From an uncultured virus (IMG/VR IMGVR_UViG_3300042257_000233) (taxonomy: Duplodnaviria > Heunggongvirae > Uroviricota > Caudoviricetes): 64,000 bases of DNA. Positions 4,891 through 61,470 of this stretch are shown in pieces (position 1 is the stretch's first letter; each line of letters starts with the position of its first letter). Made by a program: the position numbers and the translations under genes. The notes beneath the pieces were generated by a model. The model made no database searches, was not told the origin of the DNA, and saw nothing but the letters and a program-made list of their open reading frames with translations. The stretch lies in IMG/VR virus record IMGVR_UViG_3300042257_000233. One strand, given 5' to 3'.

Positions 4891-5111
4891 CGGAAATACG
4901 ATTTAACAACTTACTCGAAAGGGTAAACAATGTTCTACCGTACAGCTTGCAGATAATGTACGATAACTCGACGCTGACCTTGTATTCTGTCAGTACAGAT
5001 GAATATGATATGCAGATATTAACCAGACAGCTCGACTATGGAACCGGTAGCATGGAAGAGTTTATACCGTTTTTAGCTGGTATGTTAGACAGGAGTAGAT
5101 GTGGAATATAA
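4887..5111 (+). CDS. hypothetical protein
   Basis: Overlapping ORF between TerL and portal. Confidence 0.5.
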   Translation: MTEIRFNNLLERVNNVLPYSLQIMYDNSTLTLYSVSTDEYDMQILTRQLDYGTGSMEEFIPFLAGMLDRSRCGI

Positions 5112-10555: not shown

Positions 10556-11209
10556 ATGGCAACGACGAGAAAATTATCTGAAATAGTAACCGAGATTTGC
10601 ACAAGATTAAATGATCCTGATTTGGTTAAATATGCTAATTCATCAACCTATATAGGCCGGGCATCTGCATACTTCTTTCTTGTTATACGGGAAATGCTTG
10701 ATAACCCCCGGCGATACGGGCTAAAGGAAATTGATTATCGCGGTGCTATTCAACGCGAGGAGGTCGCTATCGGGGATGCCTCCACCGAGAACGGCCTCAC
10801 CCTTTTCTCGTCTTTGTCTGGAAATCCTGAAATTGTGCTTGATGTTTACACAAATCCAGATAGCTCAAACACACAATTGCCGTACAATATTGTTACAATA
10901 AATGAGGAATATCCATCATTTGCTGTAAACGTTGAGAGTAAAAACCTAAACTTTTACACACCAAAGGTTGATGTTTATACGGATCGTGGCTGGTATCTTG
11001 TTGAAACTGGTATCCAGTTATATCCAAAAGAGGGGACAGGCACACAAAGCTATTATTTCACCGTTAAATATATCGACGAACTTGATTTTGGAAGCTACGA
11101 TAAAGATACAGAGTTTTATATTGGTGAAGATGGGCTTTTCTCACTGCGGTTTATAGATAAGGCAATCGATTTAACCGTTGCACGGCTTTTACAGGAACGC
11201 AATATATGA
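10556..11209 (+). CDS. putative head-tail adaptor, module A
   Basis: LSEIVTEICTRLND...IQLYP pattern; precedes the nozzle. Confidence 0.6.
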   Translation: MATTRKLSEIVTEICTRLNDPDLVKYANSSTYIGRASAYFFLVIREMLDNPRRYGLKEIDYRGAIQREEVAIGDASTENGLTLFSSLSGNPEIVLDVYTNPDSSNTQLPYNIVTINEEYPSFAVNVESKNLNFYTPKVDVYTDRGWYLVETGIQLYPKEGTGTQSYYFTVKYIDELDFGSYDKDTEFYIGEDGLFSLRFIDKAIDLTVARLLQERNI

Positions 11210-14200: not shown

Positions 14201-15381
14201 TTATTGGATACGATTGGGTTAACGACACGGAAAATACAAACATCGTAATTGGCGATATTGAGAGTGCTGAATATGAAGATTATCTTGATTGGGTAGCGTA
14301 TTCAAAAGTGAACGGTCTTTCTTTCCCCGATAAATACATCAAAAAAGCCGCTGGTGAGGTTTTAAGGATAGTGCCGGTGCCGTCATACCTTAGGAACAGA
14401 ACGTCGTTCTCAAACTCAATTGTCGCGTTTTACAGGAATGGATTTAACGTATTCCCGTTAGAGGGCGACCCGTCCACGTGGAATGATTCTGCGGAGAACC
14501 TGATACCAGAGCGAAAGCGTGATGGTTTGGCTGCACTTAATTCTGTTGTTGTCACACCGTATGGGTTATTCTGGAGATCAGAGGCTGGTGTGATGATGTG
14601 GAATGCGTCACAGTACTCAAACGTATCGCTGAACAGGATAGATATTCCAATAAAAGATAGCATGGTGGGTATTTATATTCCGCTTGCGCAACAATATATC
14701 CTTCACGATAATGATGCAAGCTCAGAAACACTCGAAATATCAATAGCCGATGATAGAATTACACGAACAATCGGAAGCTGGGACACAGACACATACAAGG
14801 TTGGAGATAAGATATTTATATCAGACATGGATACTACGGCTAATAATAAGGGTTTTGTCCTTACTTACGTCAGTTCTTGGCAGCTTTGCATAGATGGTTC
14901 GACAGATGCTGAGACAGAACGGGCAACAATATCAACAACAAAGTCGTATGTTTATGACATCCCAGAAGATAAGTGGACAACATTCACTGGGCTTGATATT
15001 TTATTTGCATCGGCACTAAGTGGCGGTAACACAATTGAAAATGTAAACTTGTTCCTTGACAGATATGGGGAGATTAATAAATATCCAGACTATGACCAAA
15101 GTAAAACAAGTGTTAGTTCTTATGCAACAAAGATTTACAACACATACTACTCAGACTATGAAAACATTGAGCCAGTTATTGAGGGTTCTGGTACTTATGA
15201 GATTGTATCAACTGACACACAGAACTCAAACAGCAAAACAACAACTGGTACGGTTAACAACTACAAAGTTAATCAAATACCGTATGGCTATTATGGAGAA
15301 AAAATTCAGATAAAAATAAAAGATGCTGATGCAATAAAGAACGTTGTTTTAGCATATCGCCCAAGGAATACAAGGAGATAA
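11206..15381 (+). CDS. tail nozzle/stabilisation protein with inserted carbohydrate-binding-like domains, module A
   Basis: 1391 aa; YTFVTEDGDESNPSP, VVTPYGLFWRSEAGV; homologous to 51477-54689 plus 59428-59874. Confidence 0.7.
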   Translation: MKRVVLPFTGSMNDVVDSSALKNDALNDIVNYEHKDPGKITKRVSVATYNATFNSIIFATFDEVIYQPDEPFYPTRLPSDAYSDVLFPVFGVDADGYYRLCLFYQYGASSWTYEDIVIDGVTYNDDSVLRISYTGNKMNIADGVNKSHFVTINKDNEFVYAINEIPRPLNKPKGVDTTEYNPSIFQENLETGNYINYCGVYRYWYTFVTEDGDESNPSPASNWIDMQFFKIDDDGVDERQVKSVTISNLKITDNAEAIKDEIKYFRIYREELQYTNGIETRTPLFIKEIEISDKDGDNQFTDTIAILADSITTDINYENDSSPVGVDVCNVGGVTVLGGIKKRIEFPFAFDNYREVKITNNNAKSFVDGVVRIKFDDIDDFGVDPEVPDWDYLMANKDKVRMFDNDLTTPLPVVYEVDSGLDTTGYVDGVTDGDFSSALNWTTGSNWVISGGSASNTGATEDTLSQDGVMVDKGANSYHIVSADFQISSGGDTDGLTIQDYKLHYGSGSGRRNEIFIVGGNGADEKLSITKSAGASIPYLDNVKAYSDSGSPFTQNLTDPEMENPSEWAIETGSSWVHNTGYWRNEETTEKSSLTGATTTPIVAGTKYLVTMYCNIKNASPGDELFYVSLGTTYGQNGFSITGNGQQYITRVVEAGSGDCCKIWKTDDGTGDFYYVRVVEIDYTVNSITTYVKLPEIPISDSKTIYQTWCNNGGAEGVNKAEWRVAAYGQFVDYSNAIDWASQETFKNVSVETNNTKVCAPLQITDEVFNRANANMNGEIVGNCSFYTNKICLLPALGVDLTTSTKSIRISSAVSPPTGVEFNFPVELDIPDRGIFAAGFVSIDGTYLTVDSAIIDFEFEREGTQHNRLYIDSSGNWKWTGQGTTYTFSNITAASTAAVKDYFVCISWAEDDKISLFVYNLTDDDFSYEEKTGSESYARYQNLNIICLGSSKDSFYPVRNSYFANWIVDTSFYLSASDEANINAVQNMANRMPCTNDAVIGYDWVNDTENTNIVIGDIESAEYEDYLDWVAYSKVNGLSFPDKYIKKAAGEVLRIVPVPSYLRNRTSFSNSIVAFYRNGFNVFPLEGDPSTWNDSAENLIPERKRDGLAALNSVVVTPYGLFWRSEAGVMMWNASQYSNVSLNRIDIPIKDSMVGIYIPLAQQYILHDNDASSETLEISIADDRITRTIGSWDTDTYKVGDKIFISDMDTTANNKGFVLTYVSSWQLCIDGSTDAETERATISTTKSYVYDIPEDKWTTFTGLDILFASALSGGNTIENVNLFLDRYGEINKYPDYDQSKTSVSSYATKIYNTYYSDYENIEPVIEGSGTYEIVSTDTQNSNSKTTTGTVNNYKVNQIPYGYYGEKIQIKIKDADAIKNVVLAYRPRNTRR

Positions 15382-38946: not shown

Positions 38947-39204
38947 TTACTTTAGCCTTTCGGCGTTTGCAATCCCCTCAAAAGACAAGGGGATGTTTTG
39001 GGTCTTTATAATTTCTGGTGTGCCTTCGTATACCGCACACACCAGGCACGGCATACCTGCCATGTTTTTGATCTGACGCATTGAAACCAATGCGCCGTTT
39101 TGAAGGGTTTCTAATTCTTTCACCCCGTCTTGAGCGAAAGTGAAAACCATCTGGTTTTCGTCGAACCAGCTCCTTGGAAGCTCTTTCAATTTTGCCTGTG
39201 CCAT
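38947..39204 (-). CDS. hypothetical protein
   Basis: Coupled (TGATG) to recombinase 2. Confidence 0.6.
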   Translation of the reverse strand: MAQAKLKELPRSWFDENQMVFTFAQDGVKELETLQNGALVSMRQIKNMAGMPCLVCAVYEGTPEIIKTQNIPLSFEGIANAERLK

Positions 39205-48378: not shown

Positions 48379-48426
48379 TTGCTCTTGAATACAATGTATG
48401 ACGCAACAATCGTGACTGGAGGCTTC

Positions 48427-50251: not shown

Positions 50252-50820
50252 CCTACGAAACATGCATCAACCAGATTCTTGAATTTGCTGGAGAAGGCTA
50301 TACCGGACAAAGCGCACTTGCCCGAACTGTGTTCAGACAGGTGATAGCAGAGAAGATGCTGGATGCTGCGGTGGGCGATGATGAGTTGCCGGGATTGATG
50401 CTGATAGATGCAAAAACCATGGCTGAAGGGGCTTCTACCATTGATCTGACAACCATTGATGGGTTTATGCAATTGATTGATCTTTTCCCTGGGCCAGAAG
50501 ATGAAGATGGATATATGTATCGTGAGCTCAGCAAGGCAGAACGCGACCGCATAGCCTACGATGATTCGTTTTTACCCGGCACAAATGAACTTGGCTGGTA
50601 TCGGGTAGGAAAGACCATTTATTTTGTACCCGCAGCCAATGCGTCTGGCCGCACCGTAAACATTAAATACAAGCGCACGCCGCTTGACTATGCATCTACA
50701 GTTACAGTTGGCAAGTGGGACGACACTACTGAGATGGACAATTACCTTACATACCCGATGCAGAGCTCGTGCATCCTGATGGCAGCAGATAGATTGAAAC
50801 AACTGGCAGAGAGGCGATAA
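50248..50820 (+). CDS. putative head-tail adaptor/ring protein
   Basis: WYRVGKTIYFVP...IKYKRTP pattern. Confidence 0.6.
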   Translation: MTYETCINQILEFAGEGYTGQSALARTVFRQVIAEKMLDAAVGDDELPGLMLIDAKTMAEGASTIDLTTIDGFMQLIDLFPGPEDEDGYMYRELSKAERDRIAYDDSFLPGTNELGWYRVGKTIYFVPAANASGRTVNIKYKRTPLDYASTVTVGKWDDTTEMDNYLTYPMQSSCILMAADRLKQLAERR

Positions 50821-51470
50821 TGAACATCAGTGACATAAAGACCCGATGCATGGATAAAATTGCCGACCTGCGAGACGGCAATGAAGTGGTGCGTGCACTT
50901 AATGCCACCATCGAGATTATTAACAGCAAGATACATGGCATCTACGACCGCCGGACGGTGGTTACCGATGGAGAGGCTGCCACGGGCTACACCTTGAGCA
51001 GTACCGTGCTTACCTTGAGCAGTGTGTTAAAAGAGCTGCAAGGTGTGTGGGTGAGCGGCTACGACAACCCATGGACTCCAATGCCCCGAACAGTGGTAGC
51101 TGCTAACGGAACCAGCACCACGTATGTAGACAACGGTAATGGTTCTATACTGTTTGCTGCGCTGCCTGATGATCCTACTATTTATGTGGAAGGGCTGTTT
51201 TGCATAGATGCAGTGAAATACACCGACACCACCCTGAGTGTGCCAGACAGCTGGAAGGCAGGCATCATGGCCGGTACGCTGGTAGACTTGCTGAGTGGGA
51301 GCCGCTACGAAAACGACAAACTTTTTGACCGAATGAACGCCATGTGGATGAGTTTTCTCGACGATATCTACATGTGGAGTGAGCGCCGCATCCCGCATTG
51401 GGAAGGCCAGGAATATAATTACCAAAACCCCACCGGGTGCATACCCAGTGAGCCAAGCGCCTTTCAGTAG
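50820..51470 (+). CDS. putative head-tail adaptor/ring protein
   Basis: Synteny; ISDIK...VVRALNAT...VPDSW..GI pattern. Confidence 0.55.
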   Translation: MNISDIKTRCMDKIADLRDGNEVVRALNATIEIINSKIHGIYDRRTVVTDGEAATGYTLSSTVLTLSSVLKELQGVWVSGYDNPWTPMPRTVVAANGTSTTYVDNGNGSILFAALPDDPTIYVEGLFCIDAVKYTDTTLSVPDSWKAGIMAGTLVDLLSGSRYENDKLFDRMNAMWMSFLDDIYMWSERRIPHWEGQEYNYQNPTGCIPSEPSAFQ

Positions 51471-51476
51471 GAACTT

Positions 51477-54400
51477 ATGGGAAAAACAATAGAGCTGCCA
51501 ATACCGGGAGTACTGAACAATGCCCAGCCGCCAGAGGAGCTGACTTTGCAGGAGATGCAGACCGCCACCAATTGTGAGATGCGCCGCCGTGGAAGATTGG
51601 ACGTGCGCAAGGGTGAAGTGGACAGCTACATCAACGACGGCTGGAAAGCACTGGTATCTGCCAGTGAAGTAAGCGGTGATATTGAGGATTGGTATATCTG
51701 GAACAGCCCACAGTTGCCAGAAGGCTGCTACGACGACGAAGTAATAGTGGTGTATAGCAGCGTGAAGCGGCTGTATGTGATATGGCGAACGGCAGCAGAA
51801 GTATGGACAGCCGAGAGTGTGAGCGTGAGCGGTGTTACCTTTGATGCTCCCACCTTTGAATTTCGCCCGGGACGGCAGGTGCTCTTAGTAACGGACAACC
51901 AAAACTATCCCTTCCGCATCTGGTTTGATGCAGACAAAGTGCTTCAAGCAGGGATGCTGCGCGTGCCTAACCCGGTGGAGCATGCCACCCTGAGCGCCTA
52001 TGGCAGCAGTTATGACAGTACGTGGTTTGAAGAAACCAGCAGTGACGACAAGCTGGGCGATTGTGCCATAGTACAGATGGCTTACACCGTGATAGATGAG
52101 TATGGAGCAGAGGGCAACCCCAGCCCCCGGAGTTTTAGCCTGAACATGCAGCTTTTTGCCAAAGATGCAGACACTGGCGAAGATGCTCGCTGGCTGGACA
52201 GAATAAAAGCCGACAACCTGAAGCTGCCGCCTGATCTGGATGAAGGTACCCTTGACCGGCAGAAATATTTTGGCATTTACCTGAGCATGGCCCGTAACAG
52301 TAACGGTACCGCTTATGCACCGCTGCTATACAGTGTGCGGGTGCCGATATATGCCAAGTATGATGAAAGCGGTGACCCGCTGCCAAACGAATATGTACTT
52401 ACTCAGATGCCCGACGGCAGCATTCAGGCAAGCTACGGCAACCTGGGCGCACCTATATCTGCCCATATCTGCGAGAATGCAGGGATTATTCAGCTGGGCG
52501 ATATCCGTACCCGGATGGAATTTTTGTGGGACAGTTTTAAATATTACCATCGTATAGAGATAAACAACCCGAATCTGGGGAACATGACGGATGCCAACAT
52601 TGTCTTGAAACTCGATCAATCCAGTATTAATAACTTAACAGTAGCAGACTTTGCTGTCAGCGATGGTGGTGGTGGCGGTGGCGGCCCCAGCATGGCAAAT
52701 ACCGGGCATATCCGCATCTTTGATGCCGACCGGATGACGCCACTTGCAGTGAACCTGCACCGCATTGATCTTGATGATGACTTTCTGCTGGTAGAAGTAC
52801 GCATACCGCAATTACTACCCAAGCAGCAGAACTACGTGTATCTGCTGTGGAACCCTGCCAGTGTAGCAGGAACCGGCACTTATACCGGCGCACCTGCGGC
52901 CTATAACACCTTTGAGTACGGCAAATTCTTTGCCGTGAACGTAGATACCTGGAGTGAGCAGCTGGTGGTGCCCACCGATAACCGGGTGCGTAATGACAAC
53001 CATGTGATATGCACCAGCGAAGAAGTGGCTCTGCAGGATGCCTTTGCCGATGCCGAAAGCGCAAGCATTACCGTGCCCAATGTGGCAGATACCAACAACT
53101 GCGGTGCCAGTGAAGAAGATTCATCGGCAAGCCATGCAGAGTTTGTGGGGCTGGGCTCTGGCAGTGCATTGATAAAGCTGTATGGCGAAGATCATAACAA
53201 TAACGCAATCGACTTCGGCGAAAAGACCAACTGGATAGAGTTAGACAATGTAGGGTTTGAAAATGGGCAGTTTACAGTCTTTGGTTTTTGCAAGATGGAT
53301 AGACTTGGCGTTGCTTTAAATACTTGGTATAGTCTGCTGTTTTCGTGTGGACAAAGTGGGGACACTTGGGACTTTTTTGGATTGCGCTCAAAAGCGGTAT
53401 CTTCTCTTACAACCATTGAATTCTATGACTCTAACGGTGGTGCACCTATCGTAGAGAACTACCGGCTTCTTCAGACAGATAATTATTTTTGCTATGTTAT
53501 TAGCGTAGATATGATTAACAACAAAGCCTTTGTTTTCATTGAAGAACTTTCGACTAAAACAATTTTGTATATAAAAGAGATAACCGCATTAGATTTCTCT
53601 GAAATTTCGGGTGTTGATAAAATCACTATAGGAGGAGAGTATTTTCTGGATGGGAGTACTACGAACTTTAGCCCTGACAACTATTATCATTCTCAATTCA
53701 ACGTAATAAAGGACATGTATGTAAACAATGCATCCAAGGTGCGAGCGCTGCGAATGTTTATGCCCTACTTTGAAACCGAGATGGTGGGCATAGAGTGGTG
53801 GGATGACACCAACCAGATAGCCAACGGAGATTTCAGCACGACGGACAACTGGGTTACGGGTACGGGGTGGAGCATTAACACGGTATCTGGTTTAGCCCGC
53901 TGTGATGGATCGCAGAGCACGGTGAGCGACCTCACCCATACATCCTTTGTATTACGCCACAACGAGATGACTAAGATACGGATAAAGCTGCAAAACGTAA
54001 CCGCGGGAGGTATTTTAGTGTGCAGCACGGCATCAGTGTCGGTTGGATATCATCCACGTTTTTTATCTTCGGACGGAACGTATGACATACCCATAGAAGA
54101 AAGTGGTGATACCTATTTCTTTATACGGGCAACCAGCAGCTTTGCCGGTGAGATAGACTTTGTGTATGGTTATCGGCCAAAGTACAATCAGAATGTCACC
54201 TTTGGCGAGACCAAGGAGATAGAGTGGAAGGATTACCCGCAGCGGGTAGTATGGACACAGCCCCGTGGCTTGAATGTGCCTGCTGCGTTTTACCGTGACT
54301 TCAAGGAGCGGGTAAATGGTTTGATCCCGGTGCGTGGCGGTAACGAAGAGCAGGACAGGGCCGTAACGGTAGTGCTTACCCGCAACCGTTTTTGCACTTT

Positions 54401-54689
54401 TATGCTTGAAGGCAGCGCGGATGCCTGGGCTGCAAGCCCCAGTGCCATAATAGAGGCGGGTGAGAACCAGGGCATCCTGCAGAAATACGCATGGTGCGAG
54501 ATGGACGGAATTTTGTATTGGATAAACGAGCAGGGCCTGATGCGCTGCCGTGACGGGCGCACTGTAGAGCGGCTGGCGGTGGGGCAGGATGGCTTTGACA
54601 CAATAGATTTAAGTATAACCAGTGGTGCCACTTACCGGCTGATACCATGCCCGGTGCGCCACCAGATATTAATAGTGCGTAATTCATAG
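51477..54689 (+). CDS. tail nozzle protein, N-terminal part, module B
   Basis: Homologous to the first ~1170 aa of 11206-15381 (YTVIDEYGAEGNPSP; LEGSADAW; GILYWINEQG). Confidence 0.75.
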   Translation: MGKTIELPIPGVLNNAQPPEELTLQEMQTATNCEMRRRGRLDVRKGEVDSYINDGWKALVSASEVSGDIEDWYIWNSPQLPEGCYDDEVIVVYSSVKRLYVIWRTAAEVWTAESVSVSGVTFDAPTFEFRPGRQVLLVTDNQNYPFRIWFDADKVLQAGMLRVPNPVEHATLSAYGSSYDSTWFEETSSDDKLGDCAIVQMAYTVIDEYGAEGNPSPRSFSLNMQLFAKDADTGEDARWLDRIKADNLKLPPDLDEGTLDRQKYFGIYLSMARNSNGTAYAPLLYSVRVPIYAKYDESGDPLPNEYVLTQMPDGSIQASYGNLGAPISAHICENAGIIQLGDIRTRMEFLWDSFKYYHRIEINNPNLGNMTDANIVLKLDQSSINNLTVADFAVSDGGGGGGGPSMANTGHIRIFDADRMTPLAVNLHRIDLDDDFLLVEVRIPQLLPKQQNYVYLLWNPASVAGTGTYTGAPAAYNTFEYGKFFAVNVDTWSEQLVVPTDNRVRNDNHVICTSEEVALQDAFADAESASITVPNVADTNNCGASEEDSSASHAEFVGLGSGSALIKLYGEDHNNNAIDFGEKTNWIELDNVGFENGQFTVFGFCKMDRLGVALNTWYSLLFSCGQSGDTWDFFGLRSKAVSSLTTIEFYDSNGGAPIVENYRLLQTDNYFCYVISVDMINNKAFVFIEELSTKTILYIKEITALDFSEISGVDKITIGGEYFLDGSTTNFSPDNYYHSQFNVIKDMYVNNASKVRALRMFMPYFETEMVGIEWWDDTNQIANGDFSTTDNWVTGTGWSINTVSGLARCDGSQSTVSDLTHTSFVLRHNEMTKIRIKLQNVTAGGILVCSTASVSVGYHPRFLSSDGTYDIPIEESGDTYFFIRATSSFAGEIDFVYGYRPKYNQNVTFGETKEIEWKDYPQRVVWTQPRGLNVPAAFYRDFKERVNGLIPVRGGNEEQDRAVTVVLTRNRFCTFMLEGSADAWAASPSAIIEAGENQGILQKYAWCEMDGILYWINEQGLMRCRDGRTVERLAVGQDGFDTIDLSITSGATYRLIPCPVRHQILIVRNS

Positions 54690-54694
54690 GAGGA

Positions 54695-55006
54695 ATGATG
54701 GAGAAGAAGACAGGGGCTTTGCCCCGGGTTGCTTTTGGCGATGTTTCCGACAGCTATGCTGACTTTGCGATAGTGCGGGAGACACTAACCGATGGAGAGA
54801 TCAAAGAAATTACGCCTCCCGATTTTGCGGCATGGGCGATAGTAGAGAGTAATGAAGATGTACGGGCGTATCGCCGGGTTACTGGTGAATACCGGCAGAG
54901 CATGGATCATTCTCTGCCTATGATCAACGTTAGTAGTTTTGGTTTACAGCGTACCGCCTCAGGTGAACAGACGGTAACTATAACCTATTACCTTTTTGCA
55001 GGTTAA
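54695..55006 (+). CDS. hypothetical protein
   Basis: GGAGG RBS; first gene of the inserted block. Confidence 0.6.
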   Translation: MMEKKTGALPRVAFGDVSDSYADFAIVRETLTDGEIKEITPPDFAAWAIVESNEDVRAYRRVTGEYRQSMDHSLPMINVSSFGLQRTASGEQTVTITYYLFAG

Positions 55007-55017
55007 GGGGGGAGTAC

Positions 55018-56430
55018 ATGGTTGGACCTATTGCAGTAAACTCTGCGCGATGGAAACGTAAAGATGGTGATTTGGTACCTCGAAAAGATGGAGAAGGAGT
55101 AAGGGTAGATGAGCTTAACGGAGCAGATATTAAAAACGCTCCTGCTGATCTTGCGCTGGCCGCAGATGGTTCTGGTGGGCTACGGTTCATTGACCTCAGC
55201 TACGCAAGCGACGCTTACGGCGTGTGCTATGATCTCGACACCGGTGAGTTTACCCGACTGGGCACACTTGCGGCTATCTCTGCCACGTACGATACAAGCT
55301 ACAAGCCGCTCAGCAATGTACCCGATTTGCTGTTGCCGATACAGCGCAACATGCGCCGGTGCCTGCTGAAAGATGACCGGACGGTAAACTACTATTGCAG
55401 CGCTACGGACACAACCAAAAAGGCAAACGGAGAAGCTGCTGTGCTTGATGGCACCGATGGGCAAGTGATGGTGGAAATTCCTGCGCACTGGTGGAAATTC
55501 GAGCGTATAGGCAACAAGCTGTACTGGTGGGTCGCTCCAACAGAAAAGACGGGTTATGGATGGAACTACTTTCCCAAAAATTATTATGGTACATACGAAG
55601 GGCAGTTGTATGACCATAGCGCTGGCAGTATTGTAGGCGGCCAAGGTGGAGCCGATACAGCCAACGACAAGCTCTGCTCGGTAAGCGGAGTAGAAGCGCA
55701 TACTGATGAGACAATCGTAGAATATCGTGACATAGCAACGAATCGTGGCACCGGTTGGTATCAGCAAGCAAATCACATTGACGCCGCAGTTGCACGACTC
55801 TATCTCATTGAGTATGCCAGCTTTGACACGCAAAGCAAAATATCGGAAGGTTTAACGAATGCGAGTAGTGGAGATTGGGGCGCATATAATGGCTATTGCC
55901 CGCTGCATGCCGCAGGCATTACTAACAGTTTAGGTAACACCTCCGGTGAAGTAGCGCTGAACATCGAAAATTTCGTCGATGGAACGGGGACGTTGAGCAC
56001 ACAGGCAATGAGTTATCGCGGAATAGAGAATTGGTATGGGCATCTTTGGAAGTGGCTGGACGGAGCGAACGTACACAACAGCCTTGCCAGTGGCAGCAGA
56101 TTGTATTTGTGTAGCGATCCTGCAAATTTCGCAAGCGACACCTCAACCAATTATGAGTTAGTCGGGACATTGCCGCAAACCGCGAACTATTACGACGTAT
56201 TACCTCTGGATAACGGGTTTTACCCATCAACAACAGTAAAAGGCTCTACCACAGGGTTGTGCGATTACTTTTACACGGCTTACCCGGCTGAGGGGTGGCG
56301 TGTCGTGGCTGTTGGTGGTGCCGCGTCTTACGGTGTGCTAGCGGGCGCTTTCTGCGTTCTTTCGCTTAGCGCTTCCTCGTATGACCATTCGTACTTTGGC
56401 GGTCGTCTCTGCGCGGCTGCTGGAGAGTAA
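55018..56430 (+). CDS. DGR target protein; putative receptor-binding fibre with C-terminal C-type-lectin-fold VR
   Basis: DGQVMVEIP, YRGIENWYGHLWKW, ends in GG.A..G..AG.F...GGRLC encoded by the VR. Confidence 0.9.
   Translation: MVGPIAVNSARWKRKDGDLVPRKDGEGVRVDELNGADIKNAPADLALAADGSGGLRFIDLSYASDAYGVCYDLDTGEFTRLGTLAAISATYDTSYKPLSNVPDLLLPIQRNMRRCLLKDDRTVNYYCSATDTTKKANGEAAVLDGTDGQVMVEIPAHWWKFERIGNKLYWWVAPTEKTGYGWNYFPKNYYGTYEGQLYDHSAGSIVGGQGGADTANDKLCSVSGVEAHTDETIVEYRDIATNRGTGWYQQANHIDAAVARLYLIEYASFDTQSKISEGLTNASSGDWGAYNGYCPLHAAGITNSLGNTSGEVALNIENFVDGTGTLSTQAMSYRGIENWYGHLWKWLDGANVHNSLASGSRLYLCSDPANFASDTSTNYELVGTLPQTANYYDVLPLDNGFYPSTTVKGSTTGLCDYFYTAYPAEGWRVVAVGGAASYGVLAGAFCVLSLSASSYDHSYFGGRLCAAAGE
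56300..56412 (+). repeat. DGR variable repeat (VR)
   Basis: 113-nt ungapped match to TR; 22 mismatches, all opposite TR adenines. Confidence 0.97.
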
Positions 56431-56456
56431 CAGTATGAGAACAAGCATCTCTGGTA

Positions 56457-56569
56457 GTGTCGTGGCTGTTGGTGGTAACGCGAATAACAGTGTGAAAGCA
56501 GGCGCTTTCTACGTTAATTCGAATAACGATTCCTCGAATGACAATTCGAACATTGGCAGTCGTCTCAGC
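56457..56569 (+). ncRNA. DGR template repeat (TR)
   Basis: AAC/AAT-rich copy of the VR between target and RT. Confidence 0.97.
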
Positions 56570-56680
56570 TTATCTAAACCTTATGCCAGAGTTGCTTTGC
56601 CTCTTGGCAGAACACAAAGCAATGCCTCATTACGTTTTGGTACCATTGAGAATGGGAAGAATCGGAGGTGAAATAAGCAG

Positions 56681-57736
56681 ATGAAACGATATAACAACTT
56701 ATATCAAAAAGTGTATGAAATGGAAAATCTGTTGATGGCCCATAAAAACGCTCGCAAAGGTAAGGCACACTACAAAGAGGTTAGGGAGATAGACCAGGAT
56801 ACTGAGAAGTCTTTGCTTAGCCTTCAGCAATTGCTTATGAACAAAACGTTTGAAAATTCGGCATACACGCACATAACACGCACTATGAAAAGCGGCAAGG
56901 TGCGTAAGATTGCCAAGTTGCCATACTACCCAGACCGAATAGTGCATCATGCGATCATACAAGTTGTTGGAGATATTTGGAAAAAAAGATTCATTAACAA
57001 CACGTATGCCTGCATAAAGGGGCGGGGTATCCATAAGTGTGTGAGGAAAATAAAGCAAGACTTGATAAACAGAGAAGCAACACGGTATTGTCTTAAAATG
57101 GATGTTAAGCAGTTCTATCCATCGGTTAATCATGACGTATTGAAGATGATTATTCGAAAGAAGATAAAAGACAAAGATTTGCTTTGGTTGTTAGATTTAA
57201 TCATTGATTCTGAAGAAGGGCTTCCTATCGGGAATTATTTAAGCCAATTCTTGGGGAATCTATATTTATCAGAGATTGATCATTACATTAAAGAGCAATT
57301 GCACTGTCATTACTATTACCGCTATTGTGACGACATGGTGATATTAAGCGATAACAAGCGTTGGCTACACGATATACGCATAATCTTGGAATCTCAGCTG
57401 AGTACTATACGTCTTGAATTAAAGTCTAACTGGCAGGTGTTCCCCGTTGCTTCCAGAGGCATAGATTTTCTTGGCTATCGTTTTTTCCACGGGTATACAT
57501 TGCTTCGTAAAACTATTGCTAATGGCATAAAAGAGAGCATGAAAGAAGTCAAGCAAAAGTGGGAAAGAATACCTGCTCAGACTGTTATATCGCGAGTCAT
57601 GAGCTATTATGGATGGATGCAATACAGCAATTGTCGTAACCTAAAAAACAAACATATTGATGATGAAATCTTCTGGATAGTGAAGCAGAAGGCGAAAGAG
57701 CTCGGCATTGCAAATCCCCTCCAGGGGGCAGCATGA
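56681..57736 (+). CDS. DGR reverse transcriptase
   Basis: DRIVHHA, KGRG.H, LKMDV.QFY.S, GLPIGNYLSQ, YYRYCDD, GIDFLGY. Confidence 0.97.
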   Translation: MKRYNNLYQKVYEMENLLMAHKNARKGKAHYKEVREIDQDTEKSLLSLQQLLMNKTFENSAYTHITRTMKSGKVRKIAKLPYYPDRIVHHAIIQVVGDIWKKRFINNTYACIKGRGIHKCVRKIKQDLINREATRYCLKMDVKQFYPSVNHDVLKMIIRKKIKDKDLLWLLDLIIDSEEGLPIGNYLSQFLGNLYLSEIDHYIKEQLHCHYYYRYCDDMVILSDNKRWLHDIRIILESQLSTIRLELKSNWQVFPVASRGIDFLGYRFFHGYTLLRKTIANGIKESMKEVKQKWERIPAQTVISRVMSYYGWMQYSNCRNLKNKHIDDEIFWIVKQKAKELGIANPLQGAA

Positions 57737-58023
57737 AAAAGTTTAGTGACTTTGCCAAAGAGAAAGTGCTTGATGGAGAGAAGATGCGTATTGACGACGT
57801 GCTGAACGAAGACATAAAAGTGGTTAACTTCACGATTAAAACGTCAAAATATCCAAAGAATAACAGCGGCAAGTATCTTACTTTGCAAATAGAGCGAAAT
57901 AGCCGGAAATATGTTGTTTTTACCGGTTCTGATGTTTTGATAGAACAAATGGAAAAGTATGGAGATGAGGTTCCATTTGAGGCGACAATCAGAAAAATCA
58001 ATCGATACTACAGTTTAACTTAG
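57733..58023 (+). CDS. small beta-rich protein coupled to the RT (candidate non-Avd accessory)
   Basis: ATGA overlap with the RT stop; alternating hydrophobic strands, VVFTGS motif. Confidence 0.7.
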   Translation: MKKFSDFAKEKVLDGEKMRIDDVLNEDIKVVNFTIKTSKYPKNNSGKYLTLQIERNSRKYVVFTGSDVLIEQMEKYGDEVPFEATIRKINRYYSLT

Positions 58024-58032
58024 GAGGATAGG

Positions 58033-58368
58033 ATGAGGATGAGCGAAAGCAAGCTACGGCAGCCTGATGTGATACCGCAAGGGCAGGCCAAGCTAATTAA
58101 CTTCAATCATGAGCAGGTTACCCGAACAGGTGAGGATGGACTGACTGAAGCCTTTTGGAGATGTGAGCAGGTGCGGGTTCATGCCTACGCATCTCGCGGT
58201 GCGATAATTTCAGCCATAATCCGTAACAAATATGATGAGCCGGGGCAGGAAGCTGCACTTATTAACAATGCTATTGCAAACCCAGAAGAGGCTACAGCAC
58301 AGGCAGAATACGCAGAATACCAGCAGCGCCGGCAGATGGCAAAAGCCGTAGCAGATAGCATCCAGTAA
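58033..58368 (+). CDS. putative fibre-associated/chaperone protein
   Basis: IISAIIRNKY...EYAEYQ..R..AK pattern, recalled next to phage fibre genes. Confidence 0.5.
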   Translation: MRMSESKLRQPDVIPQGQAKLINFNHEQVTRTGEDGLTEAFWRCEQVRVHAYASRGAIISAIIRNKYDEPGQEAALINNAIANPEEATAQAEYAEYQQRRQMAKAVADSIQ

Positions 58369-58377
58369 AGGACGAAC

Positions 58378-58761
58378 ATGAGTGAAGCAGACGTTAGAAT
58401 CGCAAAACTCGAACAGAGACAGGAGAGCTGCGAGTCTCGATTGTCCGCTGTAGAAGACACACAGAAACAGATCACGGAGATCAGAGACCTTCTGCTGGTT
58501 ATACAGTCTGATTTGCAACATGAGATCAAGGACTTCGATGATAAGCGTCTGCGCTGCATGAAGGAATTCGACGCACGCTACGTGCAGCATTCGCAACTGA
58601 ACAGCTGTGTGCAGAAGCAGATCGATAGTGACCGCGAGAAGCGGAGTGAAACCACCAGCCGCAGCACGCTGATATTTGGCAGAGTTTTGGATATCGCCTT
58701 TAAGCTCTGCGTGGTACTGGCGGCAGGATACGCAGTGTACAGCGCTGCGATGGGAGGATAG
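58378..58761 (+). CDS. coiled-coil protein with C-terminal TM helix (lysis-cassette type)
   Basis: RIAKLEQR...hydrophobic C-terminus. Confidence 0.55.
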   Translation: MSEADVRIAKLEQRQESCESRLSAVEDTQKQITEIRDLLLVIQSDLQHEIKDFDDKRLRCMKEFDARYVQHSQLNSCVQKQIDSDREKRSETTSRSTLIFGRVLDIAFKLCVVLAAGYAVYSAAMGG

Positions 58762-58762
58762 G

Positions 58763-59206
58763 GTGATAAAAGAGATAATCGGCGCAGTGGCAGGAGCAAT
58801 AAAACCAGCTACAGACTTGGTGGATAATCTCACCACCACCACCGAAGAAAAAATGCAACTGCGCAATGCGCTGGAACAATTACAGAACCAAGTAACCACC
58901 AAGCTGATAGACTATGATACCGAAGTGGCAAAGGCAAAAGCTGAGATCATGAAAGCAGAATTGCAGCAGGATGACAAATTTACCAAGCGAGCACGTCCAT
59001 GGATTATTTATGGCGGATTGATTGCGCTGGGGCTTAACCACATCATGCTACCATGGGCGGCATGGATAATGACAGCGGTAGGCGCAACCACCGAAGCATT
59101 ACCAGCAATTAACCTGCCAGGTGAATTTTGGCTTGCATGGGGTGGGGCGGCTGGTGTTTACGCTTTTCGCCGGACTTCTGAGAAGCTAACCAAGGCAAAG
59201 GGGTAG
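58763..59206 (+). CDS. holin, 3TM (GTA-holin-like)
   Basis: GTG start after GGAGG; T.EEK...DKFTKRARP + TM...G.Y...RT.EK. Confidence 0.8.
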   Translation: MIKEIIGAVAGAIKPATDLVDNLTTTTEEKMQLRNALEQLQNQVTTKLIDYDTEVAKAKAEIMKAELQQDDKFTKRARPWIIYGGLIALGLNHIMLPWAAWIMTAVGATTEALPAINLPGEFWLAWGGAAGVYAFRRTSEKLTKAKG

Positions 59207-59209
59207 GAT

Positions 59210-59431
59210 ATGGATAAGCTCTATCATTTCTGCGGCTGTGCCGTAGTGGCCTTTGGTGCCGGGGTGCTGTGGAAGAACCCGGCGGCAGGCTACGGTGTGG
59301 CGGTAACGGCAGGCATCCTGAAGGAAGAAGCAGACGATCGGCCCGGCGGCAGCGGCTACGACAAACTGGATATCCGGGCTGATGTAATGGGCGCGCTGGT
59401 AGGGAGCTGCGCTGCAATGCTGGTGTTGTGA
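59210..59431 (+). CDS. small membrane protein (DK..HF...KE..D...D..AD family)
   Basis: MDKLYHF...GILKEEADD...DIRADVMG. Confidence 0.65.
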   Translation: MDKLYHFCGCAVVAFGAGVLWKNPAAGYGVAVTAGILKEEADDRPGGSGYDKLDIRADVMGALVGSCAAMLVL

Positions 59432-59874
59432 TGGCGCAGGAAGTTTTTGTTTTTGATGCCCGTCGTAACGCGGTGACGGGAAAATTCGGCAACATGGATA
59501 TTGTGCGGGGGCAGCCGCTTACCGGGGGTAAATGGTTGAAGAACGTGGTTGTGTTCCAAAACACTGACGGTGATCTGAAAGAGTACCCATCCAGCAGCAA
59601 CACATCAGAGACGGCGACCGTGCGCACAGCACGGTATGCATTAGATGAAGCGGGAGAAGAGCGGATAGGCAAGATAAAAGTGGTGTATGAAGGCACTGCT
59701 ACAGTGATGGTGTACAGTTACAACCACCGTTACGAGACTACCCCGTACCGGGTGATTACCTGCACCGGAATAAGCAGTGACACATGGTTTGTGTTACCGC
59801 TGAACGTGAAATCTTCGTTTATAGAGATACAAGTGAGTGGGTTTACCACTTTGAAGGCAATTTTCATACAGTAG
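59428..59874 (+). CDS. tail nozzle protein, C-terminal part, module B
   Basis: Aligns with the last ~145 aa of 11206-15381. Confidence 0.7.
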   Translation: MMAQEVFVFDARRNAVTGKFGNMDIVRGQPLTGGKWLKNVVVFQNTDGDLKEYPSSSNTSETATVRTARYALDEAGEERIGKIKVVYEGTATVMVYSYNHRYETTPYRVITCTGISSDTWFVLPLNVKSSFIEIQVSGFTTLKAIFIQ

Positions 59875-59883
59875 GAGGCAGGG

Positions 59884-61467
59884 ATGGCATGGTATTCTGC
59901 ACCGTTAGTGCTAGGAGCGATTGACAGCGCGAGACATTATTTTAACAAGCCCAAGCAGCAGCAGCCGGACACGGGCTGGATGCAGAGATTTATAAACAAT
60001 TGGAAGGGTGAAGTGAGTTCTAACACCACCCAGAATCGCATTATGCGGGATGCGCAGCGCACCATAGGCGCGAATGCCACCAGAGCGAACCAGCAGATAG
60101 GGTATGATTTGGCACGTACCGGAAATGAAGGATTAGCCGCCAGTGCAATACTGCAAACGCAGAAGAACAGCAACGCAGCGGGGCAAAACGCATTGCAGTA
60201 TGCCAGCAGGCAGCAGGAGCAGGACAACACCCGCTACCAGAATAAAATAGAGAATCTGGAGATGATGCGGGAGCGGATAGAGGCAGAGGCGCGGCAGCGG
60301 CACAACGTGGCAATGGATGAATGGAAGCAGGGCTGGGGCGATGTGGCCATGAATACCGCTGGTCGATTGGCAACCGCCGGGATGAACGAGATGGCACGCA
60401 ATGCAGCAGAGCTGAAACAGCAGGGCACCAGGGAAGAGAGCGCAGGCATCCTGAACAAACTGATGGACGGGAGCCTGAACGATGCTGACCTGCAGGAAGC
60501 AGTACGCAGCGGCGCAATGACGGTGAACGAAGCATGGCGCTACGCACAGACCATGGACAGCCAGGGTGATGACCAAGCCTATTTTGATGCAGTGAAAAAG
60601 CTGGCAGGTGGCACGCACGAATGGAACCCTGAATTTGATACCGGGCAGAACATGAAGCTGCTGCAACTGAGTATACCGGATGAAACCAACTCTGGAGAAG
60701 CGTATTACAACGAGCTGGCAGGGATATTGAAAAGTGACCGGGCATTTGATCCGAAGATGACGACACAGCAGAACGTGAATATACTGCGTAGCAGCCAGAC
60801 GGCAGACACCGGGGAAGAGCAGAACAAAGTGTATTATGGCATGAGTACCAACCCAGACCTTACCCCGGAGCAGGTAGATGCAGCGGTAAATGCCGGAGCA
60901 ATAACGCCACAGATGGGTTTGAACCTGCAAAAACGCTTTGCCACGGAAGATATTGAGACCGACTGGTACAAAGGCGAAGATGGGCTGGAGCACCAGCAGG
61001 CAAACATTAATGGACAATGGGTGGACACTGGCATCACACGCAAGGCAAACTACAATGCCAGCGCAGACAAACGACAGCAAAAAGCACAGCAGGATTTGGT
61101 TACCTTTGGCAATGAACTGGAGGTATACTCGAAGTTTACTAATAATGCCGCAGCTGAGGATATGCGAGACCTGGTAAGTAACATTACCACCATCCCGCTG
61201 GATGAGGCGCAGGACAGGCTGTATAATTATGTTAACGGAATGGACTTGCCTATCAAAGGTGGAAATAGCATTGAATACCCTGGACCAAAAGGGGAAAAGA
61301 TAAAAATAACTTTGGCCGGTGACAGCGACGAGGCGAAGTTATTTGATGCACGGATGAAGATTTACACCCGGCTCACTAAAGCGTTGAACAACATACGGCT
61401 GAATATGGGCGAGCAGACGACGCCTGATAATTTTAATGATGACTTTAATCAGTTTGATTGGGACTAA
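59884..61467 (+). CDS. putative ejection protein, module B
   Basis: Q/N/A-rich helical protein before the giant gene. Confidence 0.6.
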   Translation: MAWYSAPLVLGAIDSARHYFNKPKQQQPDTGWMQRFINNWKGEVSSNTTQNRIMRDAQRTIGANATRANQQIGYDLARTGNEGLAASAILQTQKNSNAAGQNALQYASRQQEQDNTRYQNKIENLEMMRERIEAEARQRHNVAMDEWKQGWGDVAMNTAGRLATAGMNEMARNAAELKQQGTREESAGILNKLMDGSLNDADLQEAVRSGAMTVNEAWRYAQTMDSQGDDQAYFDAVKKLAGGTHEWNPEFDTGQNMKLLQLSIPDETNSGEAYYNELAGILKSDRAFDPKMTTQQNVNILRSSQTADTGEEQNKVYYGMSTNPDLTPEQVDAAVNAGAITPQMGLNLQKRFATEDIETDWYKGEDGLEHQQANINGQWVDTGITRKANYNASADKRQQKAQQDLVTFGNELEVYSKFTNNAAAEDMRDLVSNITTIPLDEAQDRLYNYVNGMDLPIKGGNSIEYPGPKGEKIKITLAGDSDEAKLFDARMKIYTRLTKALNNIRLNMGEQTTPDNFNDDFNQFDWD

Positions 61468-61470
61468 GCA

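What the first reader, a model, noticed from the sequence alone, without database searches (positions are those of the whole stretch)
54689..59874. Tail nozzle split into two genes with a 4.7-kb DGR-fibre-holin block in the break
Seen: the module B nozzle stops at IPCPVRHQILIVRNS, matching IYIPLAQQYILHDND in module A. ORF 59428-59874 (VFVFDARRNAVTGKFGNMDIVRGQPLTGGKWLKNVVVFQNTDGDLKEYP) matches the module A C-terminus (SYVYDIPEDKWTTFTGLDILFASALSGGNTIENVNLFLDRYGEINKYP). Module A has a ~75-aa insert at the same point. Inference: this surface loop tolerates a chain break, so the fold assembles from two polypeptides, and the locus became a landing site for a host-range and lysis cassette.
Basis: partly seen in the sequence, partly recalled or inferred. 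Interest (0 to 1): 0.75.

Follow-up and report, generated by a model that had tools for sequence, protein, structure and literature searches.

The report
Split phage nozzle enclosing DGR cassette
A temperate short-tailed phage encodes its tail nozzle as a 1070-residue piece and a 147-residue piece, separated by 4.7 kb that holds a hypermutating receptor-type gene system and a lysis gene; split nozzles are already known, but this break point and its cargo are new.

Summary
Phage B's nozzle homologue (51477-54689) stops exactly where fused relatives continue. ORF 59428/59431-59874 supplies the missing C-terminus, colinear over its whole length (41.8 bits, E 7e-15, against a profile built without it).

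An AF2 model of a fused relative matches podophage nozzles end to end (crAss001 muzzle, SU10, P22, T7). The break is a tight beta-hairpin inside the propeller. The small piece therefore carries the last propeller strands plus the C-terminal platform domain.

The 4.7 kb between holds:
- a DGR: an RT, and a TR/VR pair with 22 of 22 mismatches at TR adenines;
- a variable protein with a TaqVP-like fold, whose VR differs between samples only at those adenine-templated sites;
- a holin.

The same hairpin carries 72-450-aa in-frame inserts in relatives, including phage A. Other uncultured phages are split there too, around a different gene or with the small piece moved upstream.

A two-chain fold prediction gave only weak support (0.57; best control 0.00). 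A split nozzle with fibre genes between its halves was published for Pseudomonas phage A1002 (PMC13730344). This scan has also noted split nozzles on other DNA. I class it as a new variant of a known kind.

The parts
50820..51470 (+). Adaptor protein gene (216 aa), directly upstream of the nozzle
   Evidence: PF24175 SU10_adaptor, E 3.4e-7, 31.3 bits against a cut-off of 27
51477..54689 (+). Nozzle N-piece (P0002, 1070 aa). It holds the N-terminal platform strands, most of the beta-propeller and variable inserted domains, and it ends at the first strand of a hairpin.
   Evidence: BLASTP to P0001: E 4e-30 (N-terminal part) and 9e-9 (residues 904-1022). Profile built without it: 52.6 bits. Alignment A1. 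Fold of the fused relative.
54695..55006 (+). 103-aa ORF of unknown function, first gene of the enclosed block
   Evidence: No Pfam, PHROG or PDB-sequence match
55018..56430 (+). DGR variable protein (470 aa)
   Evidence: phrog_5302 'tail protein', E 1.7e-92. AF2 model pLDDT 82.3. Best PDB fold match is the Thermus aquaticus DGR variable protein 5vf4, E 6.7e-8, followed by FGE/EgtB-type folds and Mtd.
56300..56412 (+). Variable repeat (VR), at the 3' end of the variable-protein gene
   Evidence: 81% identical to the TR. 22 of 22 mismatches lie at TR adenines. All 14 substitutions seen in a contig of run X6 lie at positions templated by TR adenines.
56457..56569 (+). Template repeat (TR)
56593..56684 (+). 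RT-17-like RNA motif between the TR and the RT gene (below Rfam's gathering score)
   Evidence: RF03020, 36.3 bits against a gathering score of 40.4, E 3e-4
56681..57736 (+). DGR reverse transcriptase (351 aa). G+C is 38-39% here against about 51% around it.
   Evidence: phrog_1423 E 5.6e-115; PF00078 E 1.3e-17. Composition.
57733..58761 (+). Three small ORFs (96, 111 and 127 aa) of unknown function
   Evidence: Only PHROGs of unknown function, or no match
58676..59206 (+). Holin. The ORF is listed from TTG 58676. A GGAGGA-TAG-GGTG motif suggests a start at GTG 58763 (inference).
   Evidence: PF11351 GTA_holin_3TM, 75.2 bits; phrog_3427 holin, E 1e-24. Repeated RBS motif D9.
59210..59431 (+). 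73-aa small protein; its stop overlaps the start of the C-piece gene
   Evidence: phrog_35767 and phrog_26616
59428..59874 (+). Nozzle C-piece (P0003; probably 147 aa from ATG 59431). It holds the second strand of the hairpin, the last propeller strands and the C-terminal platform beta-sandwich.
   Evidence: Database twin P0004, 147 aa, seen on 6 contigs. Two-chain fold prediction 0.57 against 0.00 for the best control.
59884..61467 (+). 527-aa gene whose homologue follows the nozzle gene directly in fused relatives. It serves as the synteny anchor.
   Evidence: BLASTP across the loci
11206..15381 (+). Phage A nozzle (P0001, 1391 aa), fused, with a 72-aa in-frame insert at the same hairpin

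Best explanation
Phage B builds its tail nozzle from two polypeptides.

The pieces. The 1070-aa piece carries most of the beta-propeller and ends after the first strand of a hairpin. The 147-aa piece begins with the partner strand, finishes the propeller, and supplies the C-terminal platform jelly-roll. In T7, the platform is the domain that contacts the adaptor.

Assembly. The two chains are inferred to re-form the fold by strand complementation, as gp39 and gp42 do in Pseudomonas phage A1002.

Origin. The break lies at a hairpin that this nozzle family uses again and again as an insertion point.
- In fused relatives it carries in-frame domains of 72-450 aa; one of them is weakly lectin-like.
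- In other relatives it encloses a whole gene.
- In phage B an ancestral single gene was interrupted there.

Cargo. The interval now holds a DGR (variable protein, TR, RT), a holin and several small genes. All lie on the same strand, tightly packed, in the late operon.

Shown:
- colinear homology of both pieces to fused proteins;
- the nozzle fold of the family;
- a genuine DGR with natural VR variation;
- recurrence of the split.

Inferred:
- physical assembly of the two chains;
- that the variable protein is a tail-borne receptor-binding protein docking near the break;
- the direction of change (fission, not fusion).
For: Homology of the pieces.
- P0002 ends, and P0003 begins, at adjacent residues of the fused proteins, with no extra residues.
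- P0003 scores 41.8 bits, E 6.9e-15, against a profile built without it.

Nozzle fold (model of fused relative P0008).
- Foldseek: crAss001 muzzle 7qol_P E 1.6e-20; SU10 7z4b E 3.9e-16; T7 and P22 nozzles.
- VIA: Z 19-28.5, end to end. WD40 propellers align to model residues about 43 to about 935.
- The junction is the hairpin E869-874 / E879-884.
- The adaptor gene lies upstream.

Recurrence among 155 proteins: 93 carry both parts, 40 only the N part, 19 only the C part, 3 neither.
- 16 N-type representatives other than P0002/P0029 end within 12 residues of the junction.
- 7 C-type representatives other than P0003/P0004 start at it.
- P0071, 60% identical over its 309 aligned residues, ends at the same site.

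Loci.
- L027 and L028 are split around a 166-aa gene. L033 is split around a 592-aa gene with a weak beta-helix hit.
- L079 and L083 have the C-piece in the ORF just upstream of the N-piece gene. Six further loci show the same upstream ORF.

Synteny. g527 follows the fused nozzle gene directly in relatives. It follows the C-piece in phage B and in L033.

Tree. The split label needs 5-6 changes; well-supported branches force at least 3.

Two-chain fold prediction: 'weak support'.
- ipSAE 0.57 (runs 0.58, 0.57, 0.57); best of 3 controls 0.00.
- Partner pLDDT at least 65; the runs agree in at least 72% of contacts.
- The mark was reached by 116 of 157 solved complexes and 2 of 215 mismatched pairs. 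Scores of 0.60 or under came from only 18 of those 157 solved complexes and from both passing mismatches.

DNA support. Both junctions are bridged by contigs of runs X2 and X6 without differences. No contig skips the block.

Precedent. In A1002, the gp39 C-terminus (propeller-C plus platform-C) completes gp42, and gp40 and gp41 are its tail fibre I and II proteins (passages of PMC13730344). That those two genes lie between gp39 and gp42 is my inference from the gene numbers.
Against: - No protein-level evidence exists. No RNA run was listed for this DNA.
- The fold prediction is only 'weak support', and it used my own alignments.
- Phage B has only identical copies in the collections, so selection on the small gene cannot be measured.
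- P0002 sits on a long branch, so its nearest fused relative is uncertain.
- None of the 18 IMG/VR relatives whose junction was visible is split.
- The representative proteins carry no genomic context, so some 'N-only' or 'C-only' rows may be gene-calling or contig-end artefacts. P0081, P0091, P0093, P0111, P0139, P0143 and P0147 look like such fragments.
- No homology was found between the enclosed genes and the in-frame inserts of relatives.
Confidence: 0.8

Rival explanations
1. The 147-aa ORF is a leftover of an interrupted gene. It is no longer used, and the truncated 1070-aa protein works alone or with another platform substitute.
For: Only identical copies of phage B are available, so purifying selection on the small ORF was not measured. 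The fold prediction is weak.
Against: - The ORF is intact and colinear with fused C-termini over its whole length, including the nearly invariant G, Y and P positions.
- Its start overlaps the upstream stop, as in a coupled operon.
- A relative 60% identical over its 309 aligned residues keeps the same stop.
- Separate C-pieces are kept in several other lineages, also in permuted order.
- In T7 the platform domain, which the small piece carries, is the contact to the adaptor (PMC6702177 passages).
Confidence: 0.07
2. Two genes are the older state and the single-chain proteins are fusions. Phage B then never suffered an insertion into a gene; genes simply accumulated between two neighbours.
For: The tree is unrooted, so gain and loss cannot be told apart. 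Split forms occur in several branches.
Against: - 93 of 155 proteins carry both parts in one chain.
- 49 of the 56 loci other than phage B with a resolved junction are fused.
- Every solved nozzle that matched is a single chain through this region.
- Split rows are nested among fused rows.
- The junction is a 4-residue hairpin turn inside a blade, an unlikely place for an ancestral gene boundary.
Confidence: 0.1
3. The block is removed after transcription or translation (an intron, an intein, or a DNA rearrangement), so that a single chain is made.
For: DGR reverse transcriptases are relatives of group II intron reverse transcriptases (general knowledge, not tested here).
Against: - No intron family was found in 54000-60500 at E up to 1; the only hit is the RT-17 motif.
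- The two pieces leave no room for intein halves.
- The block is made of 9 same-strand ORFs and no recombinase family was matched in it.
- No contig joins across it.
- Permuted relatives cannot be spliced.
Confidence: 0.02

Closest known systems
Split nozzle of Pseudomonas podophage A1002: gp42 'nozzle-base' plus gp39 'nozzle-rope' (cryo-EM; PLoS Biol 2026, PMC13730344; passages read)
   Same: - The nozzle is made of two chains.
- One chain ends in a 'propeller-C' (two incomplete blades) plus a 'platform-C' beta-sandwich. These fill what the other chain lacks by strand augmentation.
- The genes numbered between the halves (gp40, gp41) encode tail fibre proteins (their position is inferred from the gene numbers).
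- The C-pieces of L027 (Ig-like head, PF10342) and of P0128, P0132 and P0135 (heads of about 280 aa) resemble gp39's layout.
   Different: - No sequence relation was tested, because the A1002 sequences were not on hand.
- Here the small piece is minimal (147 aa, with no fibre-dock or Ig part).
- The break is a hairpin within a blade.
- The enclosed DNA is 4.7 kb with a DGR and a holin, not two small fibre genes.
- Nothing is solved experimentally here.
Single-chain podophage nozzle and muzzle proteins: crAss001 muzzle (7qok/7qol), SU10 gp17 (7z4b), Pa223, VP1, GP4, P22 gp10, Sf6 gp8, T7 gp12
   Same: - The platform plus beta-propeller fold matches end to end for the fused family member (Z 19-28.5).
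- The gene lies directly after the adaptor gene.
- There is a marginal sequence link to the GP4 nozzle 8jov_A at the 'YTVV..GEESNPSP' motif (E 0.0034).
- In T7 the fibre dock lies between the end of the propeller and the platform, on the outer surface (PMC6702177 passages). In SU10 a fibre-dock loop sits on blade 1 near the C-terminus (PMC9509320 passages). Topologically this is close to the hairpin broken here (inference; no residue-level mapping was made).
   Different: - Those proteins are one polypeptide.
- Apart from that marginal link to the GP4 nozzle, there is no usable sequence similarity.
Diversity-generating retroelements of phages (BPP-1 Mtd type) and the TaqVP variable protein
   Same: - An RT, and a TR/VR pair with adenine-only mismatches.
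- The VR lies at the C-terminus of a protein with a TaqVP / FGE-type C-lectin-like fold.
- The VR varies between samples only at adenine-templated sites.
   Different: - No Avd accessory gene was recognised.
- The element sits inside a broken structural gene.

Membership tests
Podophage nozzle / muzzle proteins (T7 gp12-like) | Beta-propeller plus platform jelly-roll fold | tested here: met
   - The model of fused relative P0008 (pLDDT 81.4) matches nozzles end to end: Foldseek E 1.6e-20 to 1e-7, VIA Z 19-28.5.
- P0002 and P0003 belong to the same sequence family.
- The fold of P0002 itself was not modelled.
Podophage nozzle / muzzle proteins (T7 gp12-like) | Gene placed directly after the adaptor gene in the tail module | tested here: met
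   50820-51470 matches PF24175 SU10_adaptor, 31.3 bits against a cut-off of 27
Podophage nozzle / muzzle proteins (T7 gp12-like) | Hexamer under the adaptor that forms the tail channel | not testable with these tools
   Needs cryo-EM or biochemistry
Split nozzle (A1002 type) | Two separate genes that together cover the single-chain fold without overlap or gap | tested here: met
   Alignment A1; profile tests; stop and start codons read
Split nozzle (A1002 type) | The two chains bind by completing each other's propeller blades and platform | tested here: inconclusive
   Fold prediction 'weak support': 0.57 against a best control of 0.00; partner pLDDT at least 65; at least 72% contact agreement. 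No interface was given.
Split nozzle (A1002 type) | Fibre or receptor-binding genes lie between the halves | tested here: inconclusive
   - The enclosed 470-aa protein is a DGR variable protein of a PHROG labelled 'tail protein'.
- L033 encloses a gene with a sub-threshold beta-helix hit.
- That either protein is a fibre on the nozzle is inferred.
Split nozzle (A1002 type) | Sequence homology to A1002 gp39 and gp42 | not tested
tblastn of P0002 and P0008 against the phage collection found nothing.
Diversity-generating retroelement | Reverse transcriptase of the DGR type | tested here: met
   phrog_1423 E 5.6e-115; PF00078
Diversity-generating retroelement | TR/VR pair that differs only at TR adenines | tested here: met
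   22 of 22 mismatches at TR adenines; 22 of the 29 adenines in the span are mismatched
Diversity-generating retroelement | VR in a C-lectin / FGE-type variable protein | tested here: met
   Best fold match is TaqVP 5vf4, E 6.7e-8, probability 1.0
Diversity-generating retroelement | Accessory protein Avd | tested here: inconclusive
   No Pfam match for the small ORFs at E up to 1
Intein or self-splicing intron | Intein halves at the broken ends, or a ribozyme fold in the intervening DNA | tested here: not met
   No extra residues at either end. No intron family matched at E up to 1.

The most novel reading that the evidence does not exclude
The hairpin between the last propeller blades and the platform may be a family-wide socket for host-range modules. 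It would be used in three interchangeable ways: an in-frame domain, an enclosed gene, or a small piece moved upstream (sometimes duplicated). In phage B the break would then do more than tolerate cargo. The DGR-diversified protein would dock on the re-assembled blade, so dock and hypermutating ligand are inherited as one unit. Nozzle fission would be a regular route by which short-tailed phages exchange receptor-binding equipment.
Probability: 0.3. Interest if true: 0.75.

Novelty: new variant of a known kind. Interest (0 to 1): 0.5.

Why it matters
It gives a second nozzle family, apparently unrelated in sequence, in which the central tail hub is cut in two. A1002 itself was not compared.

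It also shows that the cut is not an oddity of one phage. One hairpin is hit repeatedly, by domain insertion, by gene insertion and by a change of gene order.

This makes one question testable: is nozzle fission a general way of swapping host-range modules?

It also warns annotators. 'Truncated' nozzle genes and orphan ORFs of about 150 aa in podophage tail modules can be halves of one protein.

A DGR that varies in nature and sits inside the break offers a simple system for asking where a diversified protein sits on a short tail.

Tried and rejected
- Close-relative searches with P0003 and P0002 in IMG/VR, and the word-indexed protein search, found only phage B itself.
- tblastn of P0002 and P0008 against 50,697 GenBank phage records found no match.
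- PHROGs and Pfam gave no family for either nozzle piece. The only hits were weak 'tail fiber' hits on an inserted domain.
- The window's own assembly is not held.
- Alignments A1 and A3 were too diverse for pattern scans. I used A3 on IMG/VR and the narrower A4 on the other two collections.
- The genome scan gave two Cloacimonadota MAG contigs, both cut at the nozzle's N-terminal part, so they give no context.
- A search for the locus of the 60%-identical relative P0071 found nothing.
- BLASTP between the enclosed proteins and the in-frame inserts, heads and tails of relatives gave no cross-matches. The idea that the enclosed genes are freed insert domains therefore has no support.
- No homologue of the RT, variable protein or holin was found in the other 91 loci. 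Only g96 recurs, 72% identical, far from the nozzle in L009.
- PDB sequence searches with the L027 166-aa gene, the variable protein and the 103-aa ORF gave nothing usable.
- No RNA holder was listed for this DNA.
- Contigs show no joint across the 4.7-kb block.
I repeated it on the conserved N-terminal 480 residues and the 330 residues before the junction.
- Literature: the search 'diversity-generating retroelement' plus 'nozzle' listed 4 papers, none on this by title or abstract start. The search 'gene fission' plus tail, bacteriophage and beta-propeller listed 0.

Full report
**Setting.** The window holds two related short-tailed temperate phage genomes in tandem.
- Phage A has terminase small and large subunits at 2692 and 3289, a portal at 5101, a major capsid protein at 7807, a 1391-aa protein at 11206-15381 (P0001), a 2675-aa protein, an endolysin-like gene and an integrase at 38146-38901.
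- Phage B has an integrase at 39204-39839 on the minus strand, a terminase at 42241, a portal at 43863 and a capsid protein at 46649, and it runs on to the window's end.
- Phage B is identical to a 45,291-bp IMG/VR contig with direct terminal repeats, rated 100% complete.

**The observation.**
- P0002 (51477-54689, 1070 aa) matches P0001 at its N-terminal 430 residues (E 4e-30) and at residues 904-1022 (E 9e-9), and then stops.
- P0003 (59428-59874) matches P0001 residues 1248-1294 (E 6e-5).
- A word-indexed search with the C-terminal part of P0001 gave four relatives. One of them, P0008 (1021 aa), runs straight through the point in question...QYILHNRATDESYVYHLDNGKW....
- In the alignment of these regions (A1), P0002 ends at the residue before the junction and P0003 starts just after it. 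P0003 is colinear with the fused C-termini to its last residue.
- P0001 and P0005 have an insert of about 72 aa at the junction (P0006, seen, has 73), and P0007 has one of about 300 aa.
- A profile of the four fused C-termini, built without P0003, scores P0003 at 41.8 bits, E 6.9e-15. The matching profile built without P0002 scores P0002 at 52.6 bits.
- The small gene most likely starts at ATG 59431, which overlaps the TGA of the 73-aa ORF before it. This agrees with the 147-aa database twin, seen on 6 contigs.

**What the protein is.**
- An AlphaFold2 model of P0008, made with a 47-row alignment, has mean pLDDT 81.4 and pTM 0.78. Only residues 480-670 are poorly predicted.
- Foldseek against the PDB puts the phicrAss001 tail muzzle first (7qol_P E 1.6e-20; 7qok_A E 3.0e-20). 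Next come the SU10 nozzle, cyanophage A4, GP4, Pa223, VP1, T7 gp12 and P22 gp10.
- VIA-align gives Z 28.5 (Pa223, 433 aligned), 27.2 (crAss001, 557 aligned), 27.2 (SU10), 23.5 (P22 gp10), 22.6 (Sf6 gp8) and about 19.3 (T7 gp12). Each match runs from the first to the last residue of model and chain.
- Unrelated WD40 propellers align to model residues about 43 to about 935. The propeller therefore ends about 55 residues after the junction, and the last 80 or so residues are the C-terminal platform sandwich.
- The junction itself is a hairpin: strand 869-874, a four-residue turn, then strand 879-884.
- The gene just upstream of P0002 is an SU10-type adaptor.
- The family profile has one marginal sequence hit in the PDB, the GP4 nozzle, at the conserved YTVV..GEESNPSP motif (E 0.0034).
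- The label 'nozzle' is therefore supported by fold and by gene order. No Pfam or PHROG family covers the protein.

**What lies in the break.** From 54690 to 59427/59430 (about 4.74 kb), all on the plus strand:
- a 103-aa ORF;
- a 470-aa protein of phrog_5302 ('tail protein', E 1.7e-92);
- a TR;
- an RT (phrog_1423, E 5.6e-115);
- three small ORFs;
- a holin (PF11351, 75.2 bits);
- a 73-aa ORF.

Evidence on the DGR:
- VR 56300-56412 and TR 56457-56569 differ at 22 positions, all of them TR adenines (22 of the 29 adenines in the span).
- The model of the 470-aa protein (pLDDT 82.3) matches the Thermus aquaticus DGR variable protein best (5vf4, E 6.7e-8). FGE/EgtB-type folds and Mtd follow.
- A contig of wastewater run X6 is identical to the window around the VR but differs at 14 positions within it. 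All 14 are templated by TR adenines. The same contig also has one inserted and one deleted base there. The DGR therefore diversifies in nature.
- An RT-17-like RNA motif lies between the TR and the RT, below Rfam's gathering score.
- The RT stretch has 38-39% G+C against about 51% around it. This hints that at least the RT came from elsewhere.
- No Avd gene was recognised.

**Is the split real DNA?**
- In run X2, one contig spans 52335-56319 and another spans 56457-62000, both with no differences.
- In run X6, which is not flagged as a possible source, contigs span 54498-55122 and 58798-59478 with no differences.
- No contig joins across the block.
- No intron family is found, and there is no room for intein halves.

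**How common is it?** A profile search with A1 over 1.84 billion representatives found 268 proteins at E up to 0.001. I scored the best 150, together with the proteins already held, with separate profiles for the 161 positions before the junction and the 151 after it (155 proteins).
- 93 have both parts in one chain, 40 have only the first, 19 have only the second, and 3 have neither.
- Of the 93, the gap between the two parts is under 20 residues in most. It is 72-88 in eight, and 169-448 in fifteen.
- One of these inserts (P0007) has a sub-threshold concanavalin-A-like lectin hit (PF13385, 21.9 bits against 27.6).
- Apart from P0002 and its shorter twin P0029, 16 'first part only' representatives end within 12 residues of the junction.
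- Apart from P0003/P0004, 7 'second part only' proteins begin within 7 residues of it. Seven others look like fragments of fused genes.
- These proteins carry no genomic context, so some may be artefacts.
- P0071, a fragment 60% identical to the last 309 residues of P0002, stops three residues after the aligned end. The stop is therefore older than that divergence.

**Genomic context of relatives.** I fetched 20 IMG/VR loci other than phage B, 2 genome loci and 69 metagenome loci. The metagenome and genome queries were alignments of split-type proteins, which biases towards that subfamily. Counts with the 93-sequence C profile:
- IMG/VR: 12 fused, 6 fused with insert, 2 without the junction.
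- Metagenomes: 21 fused, 10 fused with insert, 3 split with the C-piece downstream, 2 split with the C-piece upstream, 2 where the N-ORF stops at the junction with under 720 nt left, 7 cut by the contig end, and 24 without the junction. Six of those 24 show a C-piece ORF just upstream of the nozzle start.

The split loci in detail:
- L027 and L028 enclose a 166-aa gene. Their C-piece has an Ig-like head of about 155 aa (PF10342, E 2e-5).
- L033 encloses a 592-aa gene with a sub-threshold beta-helix hit (PF13229, 24.9 bits against 25.9).
- In L079 and L083 the N-piece gene is followed directly by the g527 homologue. The C-piece (86.6 bits) is the C-terminal part of the ORF just upstream of the N-piece gene. 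L082 has two such upstream copies.

Synteny: in fused relatives the g527 homologue follows the nozzle gene directly. In phage B and in L033 it follows the C-piece. This is what an interruption of one ancestral gene predicts.

Tree: a FastTree tree of 70 proteins, built on the parts before the junction only, needs 5-6 changes of the split label. Well-supported branches force at least 3. P0002 is a long branch of uncertain place.

**Do the two chains bind?**
- The prediction with residues 855-1070 of P0002 and the 147-aa piece gave 'weak support'. The ipSAE was 0.57 (runs 0.58, 0.57, 0.57) and the best of 3 controls was 0.00.
- Partner pLDDT was at least 65, and the runs agree in at least 72% of contacts.
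- By the tool's calibration, the mark was reached by 116 of 157 solved complexes and 2 of 215 mismatched pairs. Scores of 0.60 or under came from only 18 of those 157 solved complexes and from both passing mismatches. My own alignments were used.
- This result fits the reading and does not prove it.

**Comparison with what is known.**
- Passages of PMC13730344 describe the nozzle of Pseudomonas phage A1002 as two proteins. gp42 is the 'nozzle-base'. gp39 is the 'nozzle-rope', whose residues 469-519 ('propeller-C', two incomplete blades) and 520-620 ('platform-C') fill the parts that gp42 lacks.
- gp40 and gp41, numbered between them, are A1002's tail fibre I and II proteins; that their genes lie between the two nozzle genes is my inference from the numbering.
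- The small piece of phage B has the same composition as the C-terminal end of gp39, without the fibre-dock and Ig parts.
- Passages of PMC9509320 place the short-fibre dock loop of SU10 on blade 1, around residues 839-857.
- That the hairpin broken here is the equivalent position is my inference from topology. I had no coordinates to map residues.
- Of PMC10172136 (the crAss001 atlas) I saw only the search listing.
- This scan's own notes list split nozzles on other DNA: 35 notes in at least 31 genomes hold the search words, and 8 were shown. None is on this genome or on look-alike sequence.

**Verdict.** The general idea, a nozzle cut in two with tail genes nested in the cut, is already in print and has been seen repeatedly in this scan. 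New here:
- the break point, a hairpin about one and a half blades before the end of the propeller;
- the evidence that this one hairpin is used for in-frame inserts, enclosed genes and permuted gene order across an uncultured family;
- a cargo that includes a naturally diversifying DGR and a holin.

Noticed in passing
window 1-38900 and 38900-64000: Two related podophage genomes lie head to tail, with integrase genes at the seam (38146-38901 on the plus strand, 39204-39839 on the minus strand) and no tRNA gene in the window. Phage B alone exists as a 45,291-bp contig with terminal repeats. Whether the tandem is two prophages or an assembly join was not examined.
   Followed up: partly
L082:1-1632: Two tandem ORFs, each with a full nozzle C-piece domain (92.0 and 93.2 bits), lie just upstream of the nozzle N-piece gene. 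These may be alternative small pieces for one large piece.
   Followed up: partly
P0126 (6791 aa), P0148 (7187 aa), P0152 (793 aa): Two giant proteins and a 793-aa one match only profile positions about 167-235, which is the 72-aa insert of the phage A type. They match it 12, 6 and 5 times. The insert looks like a repeat domain of adhesin-like giant proteins.
   Followed up: no
window 56800-58000: G+C drops to 38-39% over the DGR reverse transcriptase and the 96-aa ORF after it, against about 51% around them. The variable-protein gene has the phage's own composition.
   Followed up: no
L009:45-359: A homologue of the 96-aa ORF (57733-58023), 72% identical, lies about 9.6 kb upstream of a fused nozzle gene in another phage. 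That small gene therefore moves independently of the block.
   Followed up: no
window 16866-24893, and 61471 onwards (2774 aa in L001): Both phages encode a giant protein of about 2700 aa after the nozzle region. Phage A's protein has an LPD38 domain (PF18857, 38 bits). It is probably an ejected internal protein.
   Followed up: no
window 53790-53990 (P0002 residues 777-837) and P0001 residues 391-449: A 'GDFS..NW..G.GW' motif domain is inserted at different places in the two nozzles (BLASTP E 0.005; weak phrog_12940 'tail fiber' hit). It may be a mobile sugar-binding-type domain.
   Followed up: no
window 48379-49773: A 464-aa ORF between the capsid gene and the adaptor gene has weak glycosyltransferase PHROG hits over about 70 residues.
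   Followed up: no
L024, L025: The only matches among 185,579 species genomes are in two Candidatus Cloacimonadota MAG contigs. This is a possible host lead for the subfamily that includes most split forms.
   Followed up: no
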